A DNA stretch of 64,000 nucleotides from a virus: the IMG/VR virus record IMGVR_UViG_3300021440_000014, positions 108,011-172,010 of that record. The stretch is one strand, 5' to 3'. The position numbers and the translations under genes are program-made. Under the pieces are notes generated by a model. The model saw only the letters and a program-made list of their open reading frames with translations, ran no database searches and was not told where the DNA came from. Within the stretch, counting starts at the first letter, position 1. Every line of letters begins with the position of its first letter. This document shows positions 5,402-45,807 of this stretch, in pieces.

Positions 5402-5519
5402 TGAGCACGGCAGGATTTTAACCTGCAAATCCCTTGTACAAGGAATATTTATTGGGTTTCTCAGTTGTATCTAATAGGGCAAATCCCTCCCTTGCTTTTT
5501 ACATTCCGCCACGCGCTCA
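5402..5519 (-). ncRNA. tRNA-Leu-like shell RNA with expanded central arm
   Basis: Acceptor GAGCGCG/CGTGCTC, TGGCGGAA 5' motif, T-arm GCAGG-TTAAAAT-CCTGC. Confidence 0.6.
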
Positions 5520-5524
5520 TAAAT

Positions 5525-5673
5525 TGGTGCCCCGCTAGGAATCGAACCTAGTTTCTTCGCAATACTACTTTACCGCATAGGACGTTACTAAAGCCACGTT
5601 CGCTTGTTCTCGTTCCCTGTAGCGTTTCGCCTTGGCTACAGCAAGAATCTCACTTGCAGACCAATCTCGGGGC
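5525..5673 (-). ncRNA. tRNA-like RNA (acceptor, T-arm, ACCA) with multi-hairpin insert
   Basis: GCCCCG/CGGGGC-ACCA, CTAGG-TTCGATT-CCTAG; several internal hairpins. Confidence 0.6.
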
Positions 5674-8239: not shown

Positions 8240-8512
8240 TTTAATACAGGCTTTTAGCTTTATCGAACTAAGCCCAATCGTCTCTTAATCTAATCCCAAC
8301 GTTTTACCGCTAAACTAGCGGGGCTAAAAATTGATATGGTGCCCCGCGCCGGATTTGAACCAGCGTATTTGGTTTAATTAACGACTCTCTTATTTCGACT
8401 TCTGTATTGGGTTTTTCAGCTTAGGGTAATAACTTGACATTCAATTTTAACTTGACTGCCTTAGAAACAGTTTTTAACCTTAACCTGAGTGGCGGTTTCC
8501 CGCCTACCCTAA
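8240..8512 (-). ncRNA. ~270-nt structured RNA containing a circularly permuted tRNA (8296-8372)
   Basis: T-arm GCTGG-TTCAAAT-CCGGC, GCGGGGC-ACCA, linker, GCCCCGC, D-arm GTTT-AGCGGTA-AAAC; flanking stems TAGGGTA/TACCCTA and AATACAG/CTGTATT. Confidence 0.7.
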
Positions 8513-13120: not shown

Positions 13121-14116
13121 TTAATTTTCAATAGCAAAAGGCTCAGACAATATTTTAAAGCTCATTCTGCCACCTAAAACCTCGCTTTGTTGTTCTTTAC
13201 AAGGTCTGCATACTATACCCTCTGCGCTGACGCCCTTTAAATATTCTTGCTCGTTAGCCATATTAATAAGCTGCTCTAAGCTGAAATTAAATTTTCCTGC
13301 CCAAACTACAGGGACAAATGGTAAATTATTTTCAACACAAAATTCCATGAAAACATCAAAATCCGCATATTTACGATGCTTTATGCTAAAAAAGTTAAAC
13401 AATGCAAGACTTATTTTTTCGGCTTTCATTGGGTTCTTTTGGATTCCCGGTCCATAGACTTCACCTTGCACAGCATAGTCTCCGGGGAATTTAGCTCTAA
13501 AAGCTCTCAAAGCTTCTTCTATTTTATATTCTCTAGCAACTTTCCAAAAACCATTCCCCTCTTCTTCTTTTAATTCTAAATTTCTGGAGCAAACTCCGAA
13601 TTTTTCGTCTTTAAGATAGAAGGTTCCGCTACTTCCATCCATTTTTAATGTAATACAAGATTCCTTGCCTTGGAGTTCTTTTATTACATCTGGATAGGTT
13701 CTACCATTCAATTCGTCTGTCCTCTTTAAAAAAGATGGGAAACTACCTTCTACTTTTCCGGCTAATTGTGCGGGAACCGGCTTTTCATATTTCTGAATAC
13801 CAGTTTGCTCCGTAACGTCCATTCCTTCGACAATACTATCTTTGTCCAAGAGAATATTGATAGGTAACGCAAGTCCTTCGGAATACTGCCCCTTAAGGCG
13901 AATGGTTTTTAATCTAAAATTCTTATTTCTAAGAAATTCATATTCTGGTTTTTGTGGCAAAATAGTATCGGAATAGTGATAAACACATAAATCGTTTTCC
14001 TGAAACTCATTTTTCTTGACGACTACCTTATAACCAAGGATATCCGCAACCAAAATGTTATCTGCCCCTTCAATAGGGGAAAGCTTTTTTATTCTTTCTA
14101 TACTAGCTAATTTCAT
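13121..14116 (-). CDS. ATP-dependent RNA ligase, DRB0094/Rnl5 family
   Basis: N-terminal LASI..I..L.PIEGAD, KMDGSS adenylation motif, QGEVYG, EGIV, SFK. Confidence 0.9.
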   Translation of the reverse strand: MKLASIERIKKLSPIEGADNILVADILGYKVVVKKNEFQENDLCVYHYSDTILPQKPEYEFLRNKNFRLKTIRLKGQYSEGLALPINILLDKDSIVEGMDVTEQTGIQKYEKPVPAQLAGKVEGSFPSFLKRTDELNGRTYPDVIKELQGKESCITLKMDGSSGTFYLKDEKFGVCSRNLELKEEEGNGFWKVAREYKIEEALRAFRAKFPGDYAVQGEVYGPGIQKNPMKAEKISLALFNFFSIKHRKYADFDVFMEFCVENNLPFVPVVWAGKFNFSLEQLINMANEQEYLKGVSAEGIVCRPCKEQQSEVLGGRMSFKILSEPFAIEN

Positions 14117-24589: not shown

Positions 24590-25028
24590 TGGTGGAAGTG
24601 AGGGAAGTCGAATCCCTGTCTCTAACAATCAACTACTTACGTTTACATGCTTATATCAGTTTAATTTTCTGTAACAAAAACTGATCAAATTTTATTACAG
24701 AGTTTACTATTTAGCCTTTAGTTAAGAAACAAGTAACTTACTTGCTAAAAGTCCTGAAAATTCGCAACTTGACCTATCAGGAGTCAATCGAGTTGCGGGT
24801 AACAGCGATTAGGCTGCTACGGCTTGGTTAAAATCAACTGCTTCAACATTTCCCAAATATGAATCTGGGTTATTGAAGATCTCTTCGGCTTGCGCCAAGA
24901 GAGCATTGATTTCTGCATCATTTTCGTCAGCATTTATTTTTTGATTACATATTTATAGACGCCAAGCAATCTTCGTCTGCATGTAGTATTAATAGACCAA
25001 TTTTTAGATCGATACCATTTACACTCCC
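24590..25028 (-). ncRNA. ssrA: tmRNA
   Basis: GGGAGTG/CACTTCC-ACCA with G3.U70; ATCGA and GCATG..GAC elements; T-arm; AAATAAAT-GCT resume; tag ending AVAA*. Confidence 0.9.
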
Positions 25029-39177: not shown

Positions 39178-39252
39178 TGGTAGGGTTAGCCGGATCTGCC
39201 CCGCGCCTCTATAGGATGAAAGCCTATTATGCTTCTACTGCACCATAACCCC
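39178..39252 (-). tRNA. tRNA-Glu (TTC)
   Basis: ATAGG-CTTTCAT-CCTAT; ACCA. Confidence 0.8.
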
Positions 39253-39260
39253 TGAAAAAC

Positions 39261-39380
39261 TAGATACATTTTTTTGCTTGTCGGACGTTTTGCCACTAAA
39301 CTACCCACGTCAATGACGTGGACACGAATCGAACGTGCGCTTTCCGATTGGATTTGCTTTTTGTCTGCTGGATGTATCTA
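39261..39380 (-). ncRNA. AGA-N6-CAG scaffold RNA, copy 4, with YrlA-like permuted tRNA module
   Basis: TAGATACAT/ATGTATCTA; TCGGA, GCACG-TTCGATT-CGTGT, CCACGTC-ATT-GACGTGG, GTTT-AGTGGCA-AAAC, TCCGA. Confidence 0.8.
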
Positions 39381-39384
39381 AAAA

Positions 39385-39459
39385 TGGTAGCCCGTGAAGG
39401 AATCGCACCCTCTCTTCTTCCTTGTAAGGGAAGCTCGCTCCTGTTACAATCAACGGGCT
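39385..39459 (-). tRNA. tRNA-Val (TAC)
   Basis: CTTCC-CTTACAA-GGAAG; ACCA. Confidence 0.85.
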
Positions 39460-41434: not shown

Positions 41435-41458
41435 GTAATATATTACACTTTAAATAAC

Positions 41459-41516
41459 TAGATACTTATTTTTCCTTTAACAGAGGAGTTTTTTTATTTT
41501 TTGCTGTTCGTATCTA
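41459..41516 (-). ncRNA. AGA-N6-CAG scaffold RNA, copy 8
   Basis: TAGATAC/GTATCTA, ACAGCAAAA; TCCT-CTGTTAA-AGGA. Confidence 0.7.
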
Positions 41517-41519
41517 AAA

Positions 41520-41596
41520 TGGCACGGCGAACGAGAGTCGAACTCGTCTATTGCTGGTTTGGAATCAGTTGCTTCACTCTACTTAGCTATCGCCGT
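41520..41596 (-). tRNA. tRNA-Trp (CCA)
   Basis: TTCCAAA loop; ACGGCGA/TCGCCGT-GCCA. Confidence 0.85.
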
Positions 41597-42193: not shown

Positions 42194-43195
42194 TTATTTC
42201 ATTAAAATAAACTTTGTTCCAGCGATAAGCTTTCTATTCGTTGACGTAGACTGTAGAAAGATATCATATTTATTGTTTGTGGCGGGATCTACTTGAACTT
42301 CATGATCTGGTAATCCAAGCAATTGTCTTGCTTCCGCGCCCGCATAAACCTTGCCATTAAGTTTGTCCTGTAAGCAAACCTGCTTATATCCTTGAACCTT
42401 TTCTTTCTTTGTCAATTGATAGAATCCGCTTCCAATTCTATAGGTTTCTTTTGGATTCCAGCTTTCAACGAAATCCTTGATAGGCTTGTCCTTATGAACA
42501 GAGTAAACACTATAATCGCTAGGATTAAGCTCTACAAGAGTAGATTTAACCGTGCTACTATTTAACGCCGCTGTATCAAGTTGGAAAAGATTTTTCGTAG
42601 ATCTTAATCCTTTTGATCTAGAAGTCATAAAAGTGGACGTAACCGTATTTATTTTTTTGCTTGCCTCTTCCAGACCTCTAGAAGAAGTCTCCCAAATTTG
42701 AATGTTTCCAACTGGAAAACCAAATTTTTTACATTCGTGAACTCCATTTTGGTTTGGAACTAAAACAGCCACAGTGTAGTTCTCTGGAAGTGAATTAATC
42801 GTCTCTTTCAGCTTTTTAGCTAAATGGCTATTGATGTTATTCTCTCCATCGGTTTGAACTATAATTAAATTGCTATGATCTCCATATAATTCGGGATTCT
42901 TTTTAAGATCCTCTATAGACTTATAGACTGCATCAATTAATGCAGTCATCCCCCTTGGCTCATAGTGATCTTTTATACTAGGCAGTCTGCATACATCTTG
43001 ATCGTATAACAAACACTTTACTGAATCAGAGAAAACGTAAATAGAAACTCTTGTTTCTTGATCTAATTCTATAGATCTTTGCTTAAGGTGTTCTATTTGT
43101 CTGTCAAATGCTAAAATAGTTTCTTTTTTAAAAATCGACATAGAAGAACTTGCATCTAACACGAAAGAGATATGGTTTATATATTTTTGTATCAT
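42194..43195 (-). CDS. vWA-domain protein with conserved C-terminal domain
   Basis: MIDAS LDASSSM, G.TAL.DA, TDGENN; C-terminal G..FYQLTK, QSTS.NRKL..GT. Confidence 0.85.
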   Translation of the reverse strand: MIQKYINHISFVLDASSSMSIFKKETILAFDRQIEHLKQRSIELDQETRVSIYVFSDSVKCLLYDQDVCRLPSIKDHYEPRGMTALIDAVYKSIEDLKKNPELYGDHSNLIIVQTDGENNINSHLAKKLKETINSLPENYTVAVLVPNQNGVHECKKFGFPVGNIQIWETSSRGLEEASKKINTVTSTFMTSRSKGLRSTKNLFQLDTAALNSSTVKSTLVELNPSDYSVYSVHKDKPIKDFVESWNPKETYRIGSGFYQLTKKEKVQGYKQVCLQDKLNGKVYAGAEARQLLGLPDHEVQVDPATNNKYDIFLQSTSTNRKLIAGTKFILMK

Positions 43196-43277: not shown

Positions 43278-44237
43278 ATGAAAAAAGAAAAAATATGTAA
43301 AAAATGCAATAATAATTTTATTATTAATTTCAAAATAAATGACAAAAATATATGTCTCTCTAACCGAAGTTTTTGCTTATTATGTAAACCTAAAAGACAA
43401 AAAATATCGAAAGATGCTATAGAAAATATAATAAAAGAATATAATTTAATTGGAGCAGAAGAATGCCAAAAGAAATTTAAAATATCAAAAAATCAAATTA
43501 CATATATTGCTTCTAAATATAAATTAAAATTAAATCCAAAAACTCATAGTAAAATAAAATCTAAAAGTAAAATAGAGATAGATCCTTTTAAATACAAAGT
43601 TAATCATCTTTCATTCAGTAATATAAATAATTCAATATGCGCTTATATATTAGGGCTAATTTGGACAGATGGACATATTAATTCAAGAAATAACTCGATT
43701 ATATTTTCAACCACATATCCTGATTCCGAATATTTTTCTAAAGAATTCTTAAAAACAGGTTCATGGAACATTTATAGATATAAGTCTAATAAAAATCACA
43801 AAGATAAAATATCAATAATAACTACTAATAAATTCCTAAAAGAAACATTAGTATCTTTGGGTTTTTTAGAAAAAATAAAAGGGTTAGAAAAAGTTTATGA
43901 ACATATACCAGAAAATCTAAAACATTATTTTATTCGGGGGCTAATAGATGGAGACGGATGCTTTTATGTTAATAAAAAGAAATCGATTTATCGTTTTTCT
44001 CTATGCTCCTGTTTAAATCAAAACTGGAACTGCATACAAAAACTACTAGATTCACTTAGCATAAAGTATAAAATAGAAAACTCTACTACAAAAAATGGAT
44101 CTTATAGCAAAATACATATTAGTGGCATACCTAATGTAAAAAAATTTGGCGACTTCGTTTATAGAAATCGCCAAGATGACTTTATTGGATTAGATCGTAA
44201 ATATAAAAAATATTTAGAAGTTCAATTTAAAACCTAA
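43278..44237 (+). CDS. LAGLIDADG homing endonuclease
   Basis: AYILGLIWTDG and YFIRGLIDGDG motifs. Confidence 0.9.
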   Translation: MKKEKICKKCNNNFIINFKINDKNICLSNRSFCLLCKPKRQKISKDAIENIIKEYNLIGAEECQKKFKISKNQITYIASKYKLKLNPKTHSKIKSKSKIEIDPFKYKVNHLSFSNINNSICAYILGLIWTDGHINSRNNSIIFSTTYPDSEYFSKEFLKTGSWNIYRYKSNKNHKDKISIITTNKFLKETLVSLGFLEKIKGLEKVYEHIPENLKHYFIRGLIDGDGCFYVNKKKSIYRFSLCSCLNQNWNCIQKLLDSLSIKYKIENSTTKNGSYSKIHISGIPNVKKFGDFVYRNRQDDFIGLDRKYKKYLEVQFKT

Positions 44238-45807
44238 CATTCGCATATCTCTCCGAAGAAAGGATCTTAACCATTTCGTCGTAAGGATTCGTGATTTTTC
44301 CGCCAAGAATGAACTTTATAGTGCTTGGCGAACTTCCGCTGACAAGCATCACTCCGTCCTCATTCATCTTAGCAGGACTATTATCTTCTCTCGCGTTAAG
44401 ATTCCAGAAGATTATTTCTGGCATTTTATACTTCGCGGCCTTATATTTAGACTTAATAACCTCAAGGTTAGTAAGCTTATTAGACTTGCAAGCTGTATTG
44501 AATTCCATGTCAGAAAAGACAATAAGCTTCTTAGGCATATCGGACTGCTTCACTTTTCTTGCTTTGGCGGACTCAAGAATTAACTCAAATGCCGCTTGCA
44601 AATTAGTGCTTCCACCCCAAGATGCTTTTCTGATATTATTAATCTTTTCGTATACTGTGCTTCCGTTAACAGTCTGCAATTTAGGACTCTCTTCAAAGGT
44701 TATAAACCAATTTTTGAATGGACCGTTATTTCTTTCTGAAACGTAAAGACCCAATCCAATTGAAGAATACATAGGAGGAACACTTGCTCCACCGCTTAAC
44801 ATCGAGCTTGACACGTCAATCAATGGAATCATTGAACACTCACTTCCCTCAAAGAAATCAGGCAAATTATTCCACATAACATCAACTGATGAAGTTGCAT
44901 CTCCACTTAGAACGCTTCTAACTATGTCGTAAGGATAAAGTCCAGAAGTATTGATTTTAACTTCTCCCTTAGCCGCCTTATCTAAGAAGGCTGCATATCT
45001 CTCGTTGTCATTACGAGCAAAAGCCTTTCTATAAAGAAAACCGGCTCTGGAAGGAATCTTATCGTAACTAATAGAACTCCAGTCCTTTTTGCACATGGCC
45101 TGCTCTACAAGAGAAATTTTCTTTCTGAGAAAAGACAAAATCCTACGATAGTTTCTCTCTGAAAGACTCATGAAAGAGGCAAACTTTAGCCCCATCTTTC
45201 GGCTCTCAAGCGAAGAGGCATTGGTCGAAGGCATCCATTTGGCAATAAGCGATGGATTCTCACTGCTGAGATCCGCGTGAAGCTTGTTGTTGATAAATGT
45301 CATCATCTGCTTCTCACACTGCGTTCCAACTAACTCAAAGAGATCGTCAGTTCTTCCATAAAAAAGAATATTCTCAAAGTTGGCTGTAACCACATTAGGA
45401 TAGTTGGAGGCAAGCCATCTTAGGCAAGTTCTAAATGTCTTTCTTTCGCCTTGCCCGCCACGTATATCTCTAATATAAAAAAGAGCCTTCATAGCAAGGT
45501 CGCTATTTTCGAACAATGCCTTTTTAAAGGCGTCCACAACTACGGCTTCAGTTTGAGATCTAAACGCTCCAGCCTTGGAAAAGAAATCCAAGACCTTATC
45601 TCCAGTAGACTTGTTAGTAAGTGCTCCATTAGCAGTAAAAACCTTAGCCTTGGAAGTATCCTCTAAAACCATCGCTTTGAGCAATGGATTAATATTACTA
45701 GAAGGTAGTGCGTTGGCTTTGAAAGAAGCTTGGCTTACGCTCTTTGAGTCTGAAACCTTCTTCTTCGCCTTTGGTAGCTTATTTAACTGTTCGTTAATGT
45801 TTTTCAT
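44227..45807 (-). CDS. DUF2828-family protein (TROVE/Ro60-like helical region plus vWA)
   Basis: T.NGA.T..ST, LDFF, RDIRGGQGER, GR.DD, AKWMP, LYPY.IV, DVSSSM, WGGSTN, FSDMEF, IFWN. Confidence 0.85.
   Translation of the reverse strand: MKNINEQLNKLPKAKKKVSDSKSVSQASFKANALPSSNINPLLKAMVLEDTSKAKVFTANGALTNKSTGDKVLDFFSKAGAFRSQTEAVVVDAFKKALFENSDLAMKALFYIRDIRGGQGERKTFRTCLRWLASNYPNVVTANFENILFYGRTDDLFELVGTQCEKQMMTFINNKLHADLSSENPSLIAKWMPSTNASSLESRKMGLKFASFMSLSERNYRRILSFLRKKISLVEQAMCKKDWSSISYDKIPSRAGFLYRKAFARNDNERYAAFLDKAAKGEVKINTSGLYPYDIVRSVLSGDATSSVDVMWNNLPDFFEGSECSMIPLIDVSSSMLSGGASVPPMYSSIGLGLYVSERNNGPFKNWFITFEESPKLQTVNGSTVYEKINNIRKASWGGSTNLQAAFELILESAKARKVKQSDMPKKLIVFSDMEFNTACKSNKLTNLEVIKSKYKAAKYKMPEIIFWNLNAREDNSPAKMNEDGVMLVSGSSPSTIKFILGGKITNPYDEMVKILSSERYANVRF

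What the first reader, a model, noticed from the sequence alone, without database searches (positions are those of the whole stretch)
39261..39380. YrlA-type permuted tRNA module inside scaffold copy 4
Seen: the order is anticodon-stem 3' strand, T-arm (TTCGATT), acceptor stem closed by a 3-nt loop (CCACGTC-ATT-GACGTGG), D-arm with GG, then anticodon-stem 5' strand, all enclosed by the scaffold stem. Known: this T, acceptor, D order with the protein-binding stem in the anticodon position is the YrlA Y RNA layout. It is the strongest link between the repeat family and Ro/Y biology. The scaffold does not resemble the canonical Ro-binding helix sequence.
Basis: partly seen in the sequence, partly recalled or inferred. 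Interest (0 to 1): 0.85.

Follow-up and report, generated by a model that had tools for sequence, protein, structure and literature searches.

The report
Phage Y-like RNA with tRNA-shaped module
The flagged 120 bases are a small RNA gene on the minus strand of a 172-kb phage: a tRNA body with its parts in rotated order and a sealed acceptor end, mounted on a conserved stem-plus-CAGCA "handle" that travels with a Ro60-shaped protein in hundreds of phages, so it works like a bacterial YrlA Y RNA without belonging to that family.

Summary
On the minus strand, 39380..39261 reads: 9-bp terminal stem, CAGCAG handle, connector-stem 3' strand, 4-nt variable loop, T arm, 7-bp acceptor hairpin closed by AUU, U8-A9, D arm, G26, connector-stem 5' strand, terminal stem. 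A covariance model built only from other phages finds it at E 1.5e-7. Rotated back, ARAGORN calls it a tRNA.

The YrlA layout reading holds. Membership does not:
- Rfam YrlA scores 22.9 bits against a cut-off of 69, and only the tRNA-like core aligns.
- The GNCGAA Ro-binding motif is absent.
- The genome has no TROVE-domain gene.

The partner is most likely a DUF2828+vWA protein 4.8 kb upstream on the same strand. Its predicted fold matches Ro60 over its whole length. The handle clusters beside DUF2828 genes (166 copies on the gene strand, 1 opposite). About a quarter of copies carry tRNA-like cargo, grafted on in several topologies. Homologous loci exist in cultured phages (Listeria P100/A511-like, Felix O1-like, mycobacteriophages). 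A 2025 paper reports very abundant unannotated RNAs just upstream of the Listeria phage orthologue.

The function is inferred, not shown: a tether or decoy for proteins that recognise tRNA shape. The scan has noted this RNA family before in at least 19 other genomes. Verdict: a new variant of a known kind.

The parts
39260..39380 (-). Whole small RNA gene (about 121 nt), 'scaffold copy 4'. It lies between two tRNA genes. The upstream tRNA's CCA is followed by UUUU, and UUUUUCA follows the RNA's 3' UAG before the next tRNA.
39372..39380 (-). Terminal stem, 5' strand (UAGAUACAU).
   Evidence: Pair probabilities 0.74-1.0. Stem positions covary across 153 distinct family members.
39261..39269 (-). 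Terminal stem, 3' strand (AUGUAUCUA), followed by G39260.
39365..39370 (-). Handle motif CAGCAG (family consensus CAGCAA), exactly 6 nt after AGA.
   Evidence: CAGC was required by the scan. The next two positions were free and are A in 146 and 137 of 153 copies.
39343..39347 (-). Connector stem, 3' strand UCGGA (tRNA positions 39-43).
   Evidence: Five Watson-Crick pairs with 39281-39285. The same register is seen in 7 of 20 modules with different sequences, against 2% in a mismatched-partner control.
39339..39342 (-). Variable loop AAGC. C48 is the partner of G15 (the Levitt pair).
39322..39338 (-). T arm GCACG-UUCGAUU-CGUGU, with G53-C61, U54, U55, C56 and A58 in place.
39305..39321 (-). 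Acceptor stem closed into a hairpin, CCACGUC-AUU-GACGUGG (7 bp, 3-nt loop, no CCA).
39302..39304 (-). Extra G, then U8 A9.
   Evidence: Sequence. U8 is invariant in 23 of 23 modules.
39287..39301 (-). D arm GUUU-AGUGGCA-AAAC, with A14, G15, G18, G19 and A21.
39281..39286 (-). G26 and connector stem 5' strand UCCGA (tRNA positions 27-31).
44227..45807 (-). Gene for the probable protein partner: DUF2828 + DUF7788/vWA, 526 aa, predicted Ro60-like ring.
   Evidence: Pfam. AlphaFold2 pLDDT 85.9. Foldseek top hits are Ro60/TROVE structures.
39389..39458 (-). Upstream flanking tRNA gene of the same array.
39181..39252 (-). Downstream flanking tRNA gene. RNase P cleavage at its 5' end would set the RNA's 3' trailer.
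   Evidence: the processing step is inferred.

Best explanation
The element is a non-coding RNA of about 121 nt. It is transcribed as part of the phage's minus-strand tRNA array and released by the tRNA-processing cuts on either side.

Its 5' and 3' ends pair into a short stem. That stem, together with the adjacent unpaired CAGCA(A/G) motif, forms a conserved handle. The handle is most likely the binding site for the phage's Ro60-shaped DUF2828/vWA protein, in the way the terminal stem of a Y RNA binds Ro60.

The variable cargo position of this copy holds a tRNA body in rotated order. It has an intact D/T elbow, an acceptor-T coaxial stack sealed by a 3-nt loop, and no anticodon loop or CCA end. 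It therefore cannot be charged or decode.

I propose that this L-shaped module presents tRNA shape to a protein that recognises the tRNA elbow or acceptor-T helix. Candidates are a tRNA-processing or tRNA-modifying enzyme, or a host tRNA-targeting nuclease or toxin. The module would hold such a protein on the ring or draw it away from real tRNAs, as Y RNAs tether PNPase to Rsr.

Shown by computation: the anatomy, the family, the covariation, the linkage to DUF2828 and the Ro60-like fold. Inferred: transcription and processing, binding to DUF2828, and the tether/decoy role.
For: Anatomy and tRNA geometry:
- establish the layout and its tRNA-like register.
- U8, A14, G15-C48, G18 G19, A21, G26, G53-C61, U54-A58, U55 and C56 are all in place by sequence.

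Family:
- Twenty distinct handle-embedded T/acceptor/D modules from other phage contigs pair in 309 of 320 stem cells. Each acceptor pair shows 3-6 pair types.
- The long-range 15-48 pair is G-C in 11 and A-U in 9 of 23.
- G-U pairs occur only in this strand sense, which argues for RNA rather than DNA structure.
- A connector stem in tRNA register occurs in 7 of 20 modules with different sequences, against 2% in the control.
- Relatives' modules hit Rfam YrlA at 38-44 bits, over the tRNA-like core only.

Handle and protein:
- 166 handle copies lie on the DUF2828 gene strand against 1 opposite.
- The flanking pair, which the search did not constrain, is A-U/U-A/G-C in 151 of 166.
- 51 of 109 copies lie within 1 kb upstream of the gene.
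- In the reverse test, 16 of 40 complete handles found by DNA pattern alone have a DUF2828 gene in the held locus, all on the same strand, against 2 of 71 incomplete matches.
- The DUF2828 model (pLDDT 85.9) matches Ro60 structures over the full length, including phage phiLo Ro60 (E 8e-9 to 7e-7, TM 0.5-0.58).

Expression in a cultured relative:
- Listeria phage LP-048 has three handle RNAs directly upstream of its DUF2828 gene.
- Phage cka15 is 97.6% identical there.
- PMC12282133 reports three very highly transcribed unannotated regions within 2 kb upstream of CKA15_055. That protein matches Rsr by HHpred and was detected in virions.
Against: - No transcript, processing or binding data exist for this phage.
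- The DUF2828 gene lies 4.8 kb from this copy, with a vWA gene, a LAGLIDADG endonuclease gene and tRNAs between. Most relatives have the RNAs within 1 kb.
- RNAfold does not favour the D stem or the connector stem (probability 0.01; target 4.8 kcal/mol above the MFE).
- An extra G sits between the acceptor stem and U8, which is unusual for tRNA.
- Covariation among modules could partly reflect independent capture of different tRNAs rather than selection after permutation.
- Nothing identifies the protein that would recognise the tRNA shape. T and D stem sequences vary in this family, unlike the near-invariant ones of YrlA.
Confidence: 0.6

Rival explanations
1. The tRNA-shaped module is only a compact, nuclease-resistant structural cap. 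It stabilises the handle RNA, or is a leftover of how new handle RNAs arise inside tRNA arrays, and has no ligand of its own.
For: Chen et al. 2014 offer nuclease protection as one role for the YrlA tRNA-like domain. In this family the T and D stem sequences are not conserved beyond the universal tRNA positions. Most handle RNAs carry simple hairpins instead (78 of 148 are 80 nt or shorter and lack a T arm).
Against: The elbow nucleotides, the 15-48 pair and the tRNA register of the connector stem are kept in many independent copies. tRNA bodies are grafted onto the handle in several different topologies. That fits selection for displaying tRNA shape better than selection for just any stable fold.
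Confidence: 0.17
2. It is a decoy that works without the DUF2828 protein. As a free tRNA look-alike, it would soak up a host defence enzyme that attacks tRNAs, or a tRNA-modifying enzyme.
For: Sibling copies in this window carry anticodon-arm-like hairpins, for example CCU-CUGUUAA-AGG at 41520..41455. The phage invests heavily in its own tRNAs, a tmRNA and an Rnl2-type RNA ligase.
Against: This copy has no anticodon loop and no free CCA end, which are the usual targets of known tRNA-directed toxins. The conserved handle and its tight linkage to DUF2828 are left unexplained.
Confidence: 0.13
3. It is a circularly permuted (or two-piece) tRNA gene. The transcript would be cut in the acceptor loop by RNase P, trimmed, given CCA, and used as a tRNA or a chargeable tRNA-like molecule, as happens to the acceptor stem of Mycobacterium smegmatis YrlA.
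For: The acceptor stem has 7 bp, the feature Chen et al. link to RNase P cleavage of M. smegmatis YrlA. A few relatives, and the other permuted module in this window (8364..8301), keep ACCA right after the acceptor 3' strand. ARAGORN accepts the un-rotated arms.
Against: There is no anticodon loop: the connector stem runs into a 24/11-nt internal loop and the handle. The acceptor loop is only AUU, which leaves almost no leader for RNase P and no CCA. Relatives close the same stem with UUCG, GUAA and other 3-5-nt loops, which points to a sealed hairpin. No bulge-helix-bulge motif or splicing endonuclease context is present.
Confidence: 0.05
4. It is a chance resemblance, or a decayed tRNA pseudogene with no function.
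For: The site lies in a dense tRNA array, where T-arm and D-arm-like sequences abound. Model R1 also gives many 25-45-bit hits at junctions between tandem tRNAs.
Against: The window hit has a perfect 7-bp acceptor hairpin with a 3-nt loop, which a tRNA-tRNA junction cannot give. It is enclosed by a covarying handle stem. The same design recurs in more than 20 phage contigs. No parent tRNA is found in the genome.
Confidence: 0.03

Closest known systems
YrlA (Y RNA-like A), Rfam RF02553, bound by bacterial and phage Ro60/Rsr (Chen et al. 2014, PMC4201824; Wang et al. 2018, bioRxiv 10.1101/312249)
   Same: The 5' and 3' ends pair into a protein-binding stem. The effector domain is a tRNA mimic in the order (V)-T-acceptor-D, with a closed acceptor, no free CCA, and a stem in the anticodon position. 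The tRNA tertiary nucleotides, including a covarying 15-48 pair, are present. The gene lies on the same strand as a Ro60-shaped protein gene, and more than one such RNA occurs per genome. Co-transcription with tRNAs is known for D. radiodurans Yrn1/Yrn2.
   Different: The score is far below the Rfam cut-off (22.9 against 69 bits). The GNCGAA(N)G motif is absent and a WAGAY-N5-CAGCAA handle takes its place. The partner is a DUF2828 protein that Pfam TROVE does not detect. T and D stem sequences vary instead of being nearly invariant. The same handle carries many other cargoes and several tRNA graft topologies. There is no RtcB/RtcR operon context in this phage.
Thermus phage phiLo Ro60 with Yrl1/Yrl2 (PMC12135203; PDB 9KOP, 9L5Y)
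   Same: A phage-encoded Ro60-shaped ring with vWA domain and phage-encoded partner RNAs next to the gene. 9KOP is the top Foldseek match of the window's protein model.
   Different: The phiLo RNAs were picked by a CGAA motif and stem-bulge-stem shape, and no tRNA-like module is reported. Sequence identity to the window's protein is about 12-13% in the structural alignment.
Putative Y RNAs of Listeria phage CKA15, P100-like (PMC12282133)
   Same: CKA15_055 is the orthologue of the DUF2828 protein (cka15 is 97.6% identical to LP-048 across the gene and the three upstream handle RNAs). The authors saw very abundant unannotated transcripts upstream of it and suggested they might be Y RNAs.
   Different: That paper defines no RNA motif, structure or family and mentions no tRNA-like module. 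I did not map its transcript coordinates onto the handles.
Dictyostelid Class I RNAs, Rfam RF01414 (Kjellin et al. 2021, PMC7919456)
   Same: About 60 nt long. [quoted passage not shown] The rest of the RNA is variable. Conserved ends are AAG... and ...CUGU, against phage WAG... and ...CUWG(U). RF01414 aligns a mycobacteriophage Zakai handle at 20.9 bits (cut-off 41.5).
   Different: The match is sub-threshold and was not reported on this window's copies. These are eukaryotic RNAs with their own promoter element, and their known binder is an RRM protein. No tRNA-like cargo is described. Whether dictyostelids have a DUF2828 protein was not tested.
Circularly permuted tRNA genes (Cyanidioschyzon merolae type) and two-piece permuted tmRNA genes (from my own knowledge)
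   Same: The 3' half of a tRNA body is encoded upstream of the 5' half, with a short linker between the acceptor strands.
   Different: Those precursors are processed into molecules with a free acceptor end, and permuted tRNAs regain a closed anticodon loop. Here there is no anticodon loop, no CCA and a 3-nt acceptor cap.

Membership tests
YrlA (Rfam RF02553) | Scores at or above the family's gathering threshold (69 bits). | tested here: not met
   22.9 bits, E 0.015 on a 461-nt search. Model positions for the Ro-binding stem do not pair. No hit at gathering threshold in the window. Relatives reach 21-44 bits.
YrlA (Rfam RF02553) | tRNA-like domain in the order V, T arm, acceptor-like stem-loop, D arm, with tRNA tertiary nucleotides (Chen et al. 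2014). | tested here: met
   U8, A14, G15-C48, G18 G19, G53-C61, U54-A58, U55 and C56 are read from the sequence. The 15-48 pair covaries in the family.
YrlA (Rfam RF02553) | GNCGAA(N0-1)G motif near the 5' end, the proposed Rsr contact (Chen et al. 2014). | tested here: not met
   The 121-nt sequence printed contains no CGAA. The 5' region reads UAGAUACAUCCAGCAGACAAAAAGC.
YrlA (Rfam RF02553) | Encoded within about 4 kb of a TROVE-domain Ro60 orthologue, on the same strand. | tested here: not met
   No PF05731 match in the complete 172-kb genome. The nearest Ro60-shaped gene is DUF2828/DUF7788, 4.8 kb upstream on the same strand. It is Ro60-like by predicted fold only.
YrlA (Rfam RF02553) | Bound by Ro60/Rsr; carries pseudouridine 55 and dihydrouridine made by tRNA enzymes. 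| not testable with these tools
   Needs immunoprecipitation and modification mapping.
DUF2828-associated handle RNAs (uncatalogued family defined here) | 5' WAGRY, a 6-9-bp stem closed by the 3' end, CAGC(A/G) exactly 6 nt after AGA, 3' end YCUWG, on the DUF2828 gene strand. | tested here: met
   UAGAUACAUCCAGCAG...AUGUAUCUAG. At least seven sibling copies lie on the same strand in the window.
Ro60/TROVE proteins (for the partner gene 44227-45807) | HEAT-repeat ring followed by a vWA domain. | tested here: inconclusive
   The predicted model matches Ro60 structures over 518-578 alignment columns (E 8e-9 to 7e-7, TM 0.5-0.58, rmsd 6-9 A), and a vWA domain is seen by Pfam. No sequence-level match to TROVE or to any PDB chain was found. 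No experimental structure exists.
Circularly permuted tRNA genes | After processing, a closed 7-nt anticodon loop and a free acceptor end with CCA. | tested here: not met
   No anticodon-loop nucleotides are present. The connector stem opens into a 24/11-nt internal loop. The acceptor is capped by AUU without CCA.
Dictyostelid Class I RNA (Rfam RF01414) | Scores at or above the gathering threshold (41.5 bits). | tested here: not met
   Not reported at E up to 10 on this copy or on four sibling copies. 20.9 bits on a mycobacteriophage member.

The most novel reading that the evidence does not exclude
Phages of many lineages, including Felix O1-like, P100/A511-like and mycobacteriophages, carry an undescribed ribonucleoprotein system. 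A Ro60-shaped DUF2828 ring, packaged in the virion in at least one phage, would bind a universal RNA handle. The handle's cargo slot is swappable and displays chosen parts of tRNAs: whole bodies in several rotations, elbow-only modules such as this one, or bare anticodon arms. These cargoes would act as baits or tethers against host enzymes that read or cut tRNAs. The same handle design in dictyostelid Class I RNAs would then point to a shared, ancient RNA-protein recognition module.
Probability: 0.25. Interest if true: 0.9.

Novelty: new variant of a known kind. Interest (0 to 1): 0.68.

Why it matters
Y RNAs with tRNA-like domains are known from bacteria and a few phages, but what the tRNA mimic does remains open. 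Here the same solution, a rotated and sealed tRNA body on a protein-binding stem, appears on a different handle with a different, Ro60-shaped protein family.

In this family the cargo is visibly modular. That makes the question testable in tractable phages (Felix O1-like, P100/A511-like, mycobacteriophages): swap or delete cargoes and see what binds.

It also explains mis-annotations. GenBank calls part of the Zakai RNA a tRNA-Thr. It may also explain the very abundant unannotated transcripts reported in Listeria phage CKA15.

Tried and rejected
- Plus-strand reading: rejected. All tRNAs, the T-loop motif and the G-U pairs make sense only on the minus strand.
- Rfam at gathering threshold: only tRNAs and a tmRNA in the window.
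- TROVE (PF05731) and RtcB (PF01139) in the genome: none. An Rnl2-type RNA ligase is present.
- Sequence search of the DUF2828 protein against PDB chains: no hit. Only the fold comparison links it to Ro60.
- Nucleotide search of the array against cultured phages: only tRNA-sized matches.
- Search for a parent tRNA of the module in the genome: none. The only similarity is 17 of 19 in the D arm with the other permuted module at 8364..8301.
- MAFFT alignment of full connector-stem modules (A5): not structure-consistent, so pair counts were made by script on the model-fitted alignment instead.
- R1 hits in tRNA arrays: many are junctions between tandem tRNAs (106 of the best 150 have fewer than 6 of 7 acceptor pairs). 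These were filtered out.
- Promoter and terminator scan: counts are not above shuffles. It only suggests a promoter-like site near 41902-41875 and no terminator-like site between there and the element.
- Literature: 'DUF2828' gives only unrelated plant and tardigrade papers. Burroughs and Aravind 2016 could not be fetched.
- Protein atlas: nearest clusters are phage and bacterial DUF2828. It gave no information on dictyostelids.

Full report
**Where and what**

The window is the last 64 kb of a 172,010-base virus record that CheckV rates complete. Positions 24.5-41.7 kb hold a minus-strand array with a tmRNA and at least 13 tRNA genes. The flagged stretch lies between two of these tRNAs, at 39389-39458 and 39181-39252. 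It makes sense only on the minus strand.

Read 5' to 3' it is:
- U39380-U39372, pairing with A39269-A39261 (9 bp).
- CAGCAG at 39370-39365, followed by an A-rich single strand.
- UCGGA, AAGC, and the T arm GCACG-UUCGAUU-CGUGU.
- The acceptor stem CCACGUC closed by AUU onto GACGUGG.
- One extra G, then U8 A9.
- The D arm GUUU-AGUGGCA-AAAC, then G26 and UCCGA, which pairs with UCGGA.
- An 11-nt A-rich strand and the closing stem.

**Is it more than chance?**

Three independent tests say yes.
- Rfam's YrlA model aligns the T arm, capped acceptor and D arm at 22.9 bits, E 0.015 for the 461-nt search.
- I built covariance model R1 from 14 T/acceptor/D modules found in other phage contigs, with none from this window. 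It scores this site at 34.8 bits, E 1.5e-7, over the window. It gives only three hits in the whole genome.
- I put the two halves back in tRNA order with any dummy 7-nt anticodon loop. ARAGORN then draws a normal cloverleaf.

By sequence, the nucleotides that build the tRNA elbow and core are all present: U8, A14, G15 with C48, G18 G19, A21, G26, G53-C61, U54-A58, U55 and C56.

There are two blemishes. An extra G sits between the acceptor stem and U8. Nearest-neighbour folding supports the terminal, T and acceptor stems but gives the AU-rich D stem and the connector stem a probability of only 0.01.

**The scaffold family**

At least seven other minus-strand elements in the window share WAGA-N6-CAG, an A-rich linker, a variable middle and a closing UCUWG. 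Most sit directly after a tRNA's CCA and a short U run, and before the next tRNA.

The gene at 44227-45807 on the same strand encodes a DUF2828 + DUF7788/vWA protein. I collected 80 IMG/VR loci around its homologues.
- A pattern with stem closure finds 166 handle copies on the gene strand against 1 on the other strand.
- The pair flanking the stem was not imposed by the search. It is A-U, U-A or G-C in 151 of 166 copies.
- The two bases after CAGC are A in 146 and 137 of 153 distinct copies.
- In loci with full flanks, 51 of 109 copies lie within 1 kb upstream of the gene and 12 within 1 kb downstream.

I also ran the reverse test, finding handles by DNA pattern alone. Of 40 complete handles, 16 have a DUF2828 gene in the few kilobases held, all on the same strand. 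Only 2 of 71 incomplete matches do.

**The protein**

The genome has no Pfam TROVE match and the protein has no sequence match in the PDB. An AlphaFold2 model (pLDDT 85.9, pTM 0.82) nevertheless has Ro60 structures as its top 12 Foldseek matches. The alignments run over essentially the whole length. They include Xenopus Ro60 with RNA, D. radiodurans Rsr and Thermus phage phiLo Ro60 (E 8e-9 to 3e-5; TM 0.5-0.58 for the best). The protein is therefore Ro60-shaped, but this is a prediction.

**The tRNA-like cargo across the family**

About a quarter of distinct handles (37 of 148) contain a T arm. Twenty distinct handle-embedded T/acceptor/D modules pair in 309 of 320 stem cells.
- Every acceptor pair shows 3-6 different pair types, including G-U pairs that exist only in this strand sense.
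- U8 and A14 are invariant.
- The long-range 15-48 pair is G-C in 11 and A-U in 9 of 23.
- The acceptor is closed by short caps such as UUCG, GUAA and UCCG. In the window the cap is AUU.

The graft point differs between copies.
- In 7 of 20, including this one, a 5-bp connector stem sits in exact tRNA register and has a different sequence in each. Mismatched-partner controls give this in 2% of cases.
- Others keep a closed anticodon hairpin before the variable loop or after the D arm.
- Some replace the acceptor stem with the handle.

The window's copy is thus the YrlA-like topology among several. Relatives' modules hit Rfam YrlA at 38 and 44 bits, again over the tRNA-like core only.

**Cultured relatives and expression**

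tblastn finds DUF2828 homologues in 704 GenBank phage records. They include Felix O1-like coliphages and Salmonella phages, Listeria P100/A511-like phages, and mycobacteriophages, where the gene is annotated 'Ro-like RNA binding protein'.
- Listeria phage LP-048 has three handles at 76-337 nt upstream of the gene and an RtcB-like ligase downstream.
- Phage cka15 is 97.6% identical over that stretch.
- The CKA15 multi-omics paper reports three very highly transcribed unannotated regions within 2 kb upstream of CKA15_055. HHpred matches that protein to Rsr, it was detected in purified virions, and the authors raise the Y RNA idea (PMC12282133). I did not map their coordinates onto the handles.
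- Mycobacteriophage Zakai has three handles just downstream of its gene. The middle one carries a T/acceptor/D module (R1 47.8 bits), and GenBank annotates part of it as tRNA-Thr.

**Comparison with the known**

Chen et al. 2014 define YrlA by four features: proximity to a TROVE Ro60 gene on the same strand, a 5' GNCGAA(N)G motif, the V-T-AS-D tRNA-like domain with tRNA tertiary pairs, and tRNA-type modifications. Wang et al. 2018 add that there is no free CCA and that a stem takes the anticodon position.

This element meets the domain criterion. It fails the motif, TROVE and Rfam-score criteria. Modifications and binding cannot be tested here. It works like a YrlA but is not a member of that family.

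The handle resembles the dictyostelid Class I RNA design instead: a short covarying terminal stem, an unpaired motif ending in CAGCAA, and a variable rest (PMC7919456). Rfam RF01414 aligns the Zakai handle at 20.9 bits, below its cut-off of 41.5. It does not report the window's copies.

**Mechanism and verdict**

The most likely reading (0.6) has four parts.
- The RNA is cut out of the tRNA-array transcript.
- Its handle binds the Ro60-shaped DUF2828 protein.
- Its sealed, anticodon-less tRNA body offers tRNA shape to an elbow- or acceptor/T-helix-reading protein.
- That protein is thereby tethered to the ring or diverted from real tRNAs.

Lesser rivals are a purely stabilising cap, a free decoy, a processed two-piece tRNA, and chance. 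They are set out with their tests in the rival explanations.

The scan has noted this handle family before in at least 19 other genomes, and a sibling report covers the anticodon-arm copies in this window. I found no paper that defines the RNA family. The nearest is the CKA15 suggestion.

Novelty: a new variant of a known kind.

Noticed in passing
window 8301-8364 (-): A second permuted tRNA-like core (T arm, acceptor 3' strand + ACCA + 12-nt linker + acceptor 5' strand, D arm) scores 42.9 bits with R1. Its D arm is 17 of 19 identical to the flagged module's, but its flanks lack the AGAY-N5-CAGC handle. The phage therefore uses the same rotated tRNA body on at least two different RNA scaffolds.
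   Followed up: partly
   Followed up: no
L018:10149-10375 and L040:11666-11894: A handle RNA nested inside the acceptor loop of a tRNA-like module that itself sits inside another handle RNA, a Russian-doll arrangement.
   Followed up: no
L196 (Mycobacterium phage Zakai) 5486-5610: GenBank annotates 5486-5556 as tRNA-Thr. It is the 5' part of a handle RNA carrying an anticodon-like hairpin (CCA-CUGGUAA-UGG), a T arm, a capped acceptor and a D arm. This is probably a mis-annotation shared by related SEA-PHAGES genomes.
   Followed up: partly
L195 (Listeria phage LP-048) 3637-3898 and 6825-8036: Three handle RNAs end in CCUGU, like the CUGU end of dictyostelid Class I RNAs. They sit directly upstream of the DUF2828 gene. 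An RtcB-like RNA ligase gene lies 1.3 kb downstream, recalling the rsr-yrlBA-rtcBA operon of Salmonella.
   Followed up: partly
window 43278-44237 (+) and 42194-43195 (-): A LAGLIDADG homing endonuclease gene on the opposite strand and a second, stand-alone vWA-domain gene lie between the DUF2828 gene and the RNA array.
   Followed up: no
window 13121-14116 (-) and 24590-25028 (-): The phage encodes an Rnl2-type RNA ligase (PF09414, 84.9 bits) and its own one-piece tmRNA (99.5 bits). Both fit a heavy investment in translation-RNA maintenance.
   Followed up: no
several loci, e.g. L062:1253-1303, L025:6427-6478: In some phage tRNA arrays, the acceptor 3' strand of one tRNA is 6 of 7 complementary to the acceptor 5' strand of the next, only 3-6 nt away and without an encoded CCA. 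This mimics a permuted module and inflates covariance-model hits.
   Followed up: no
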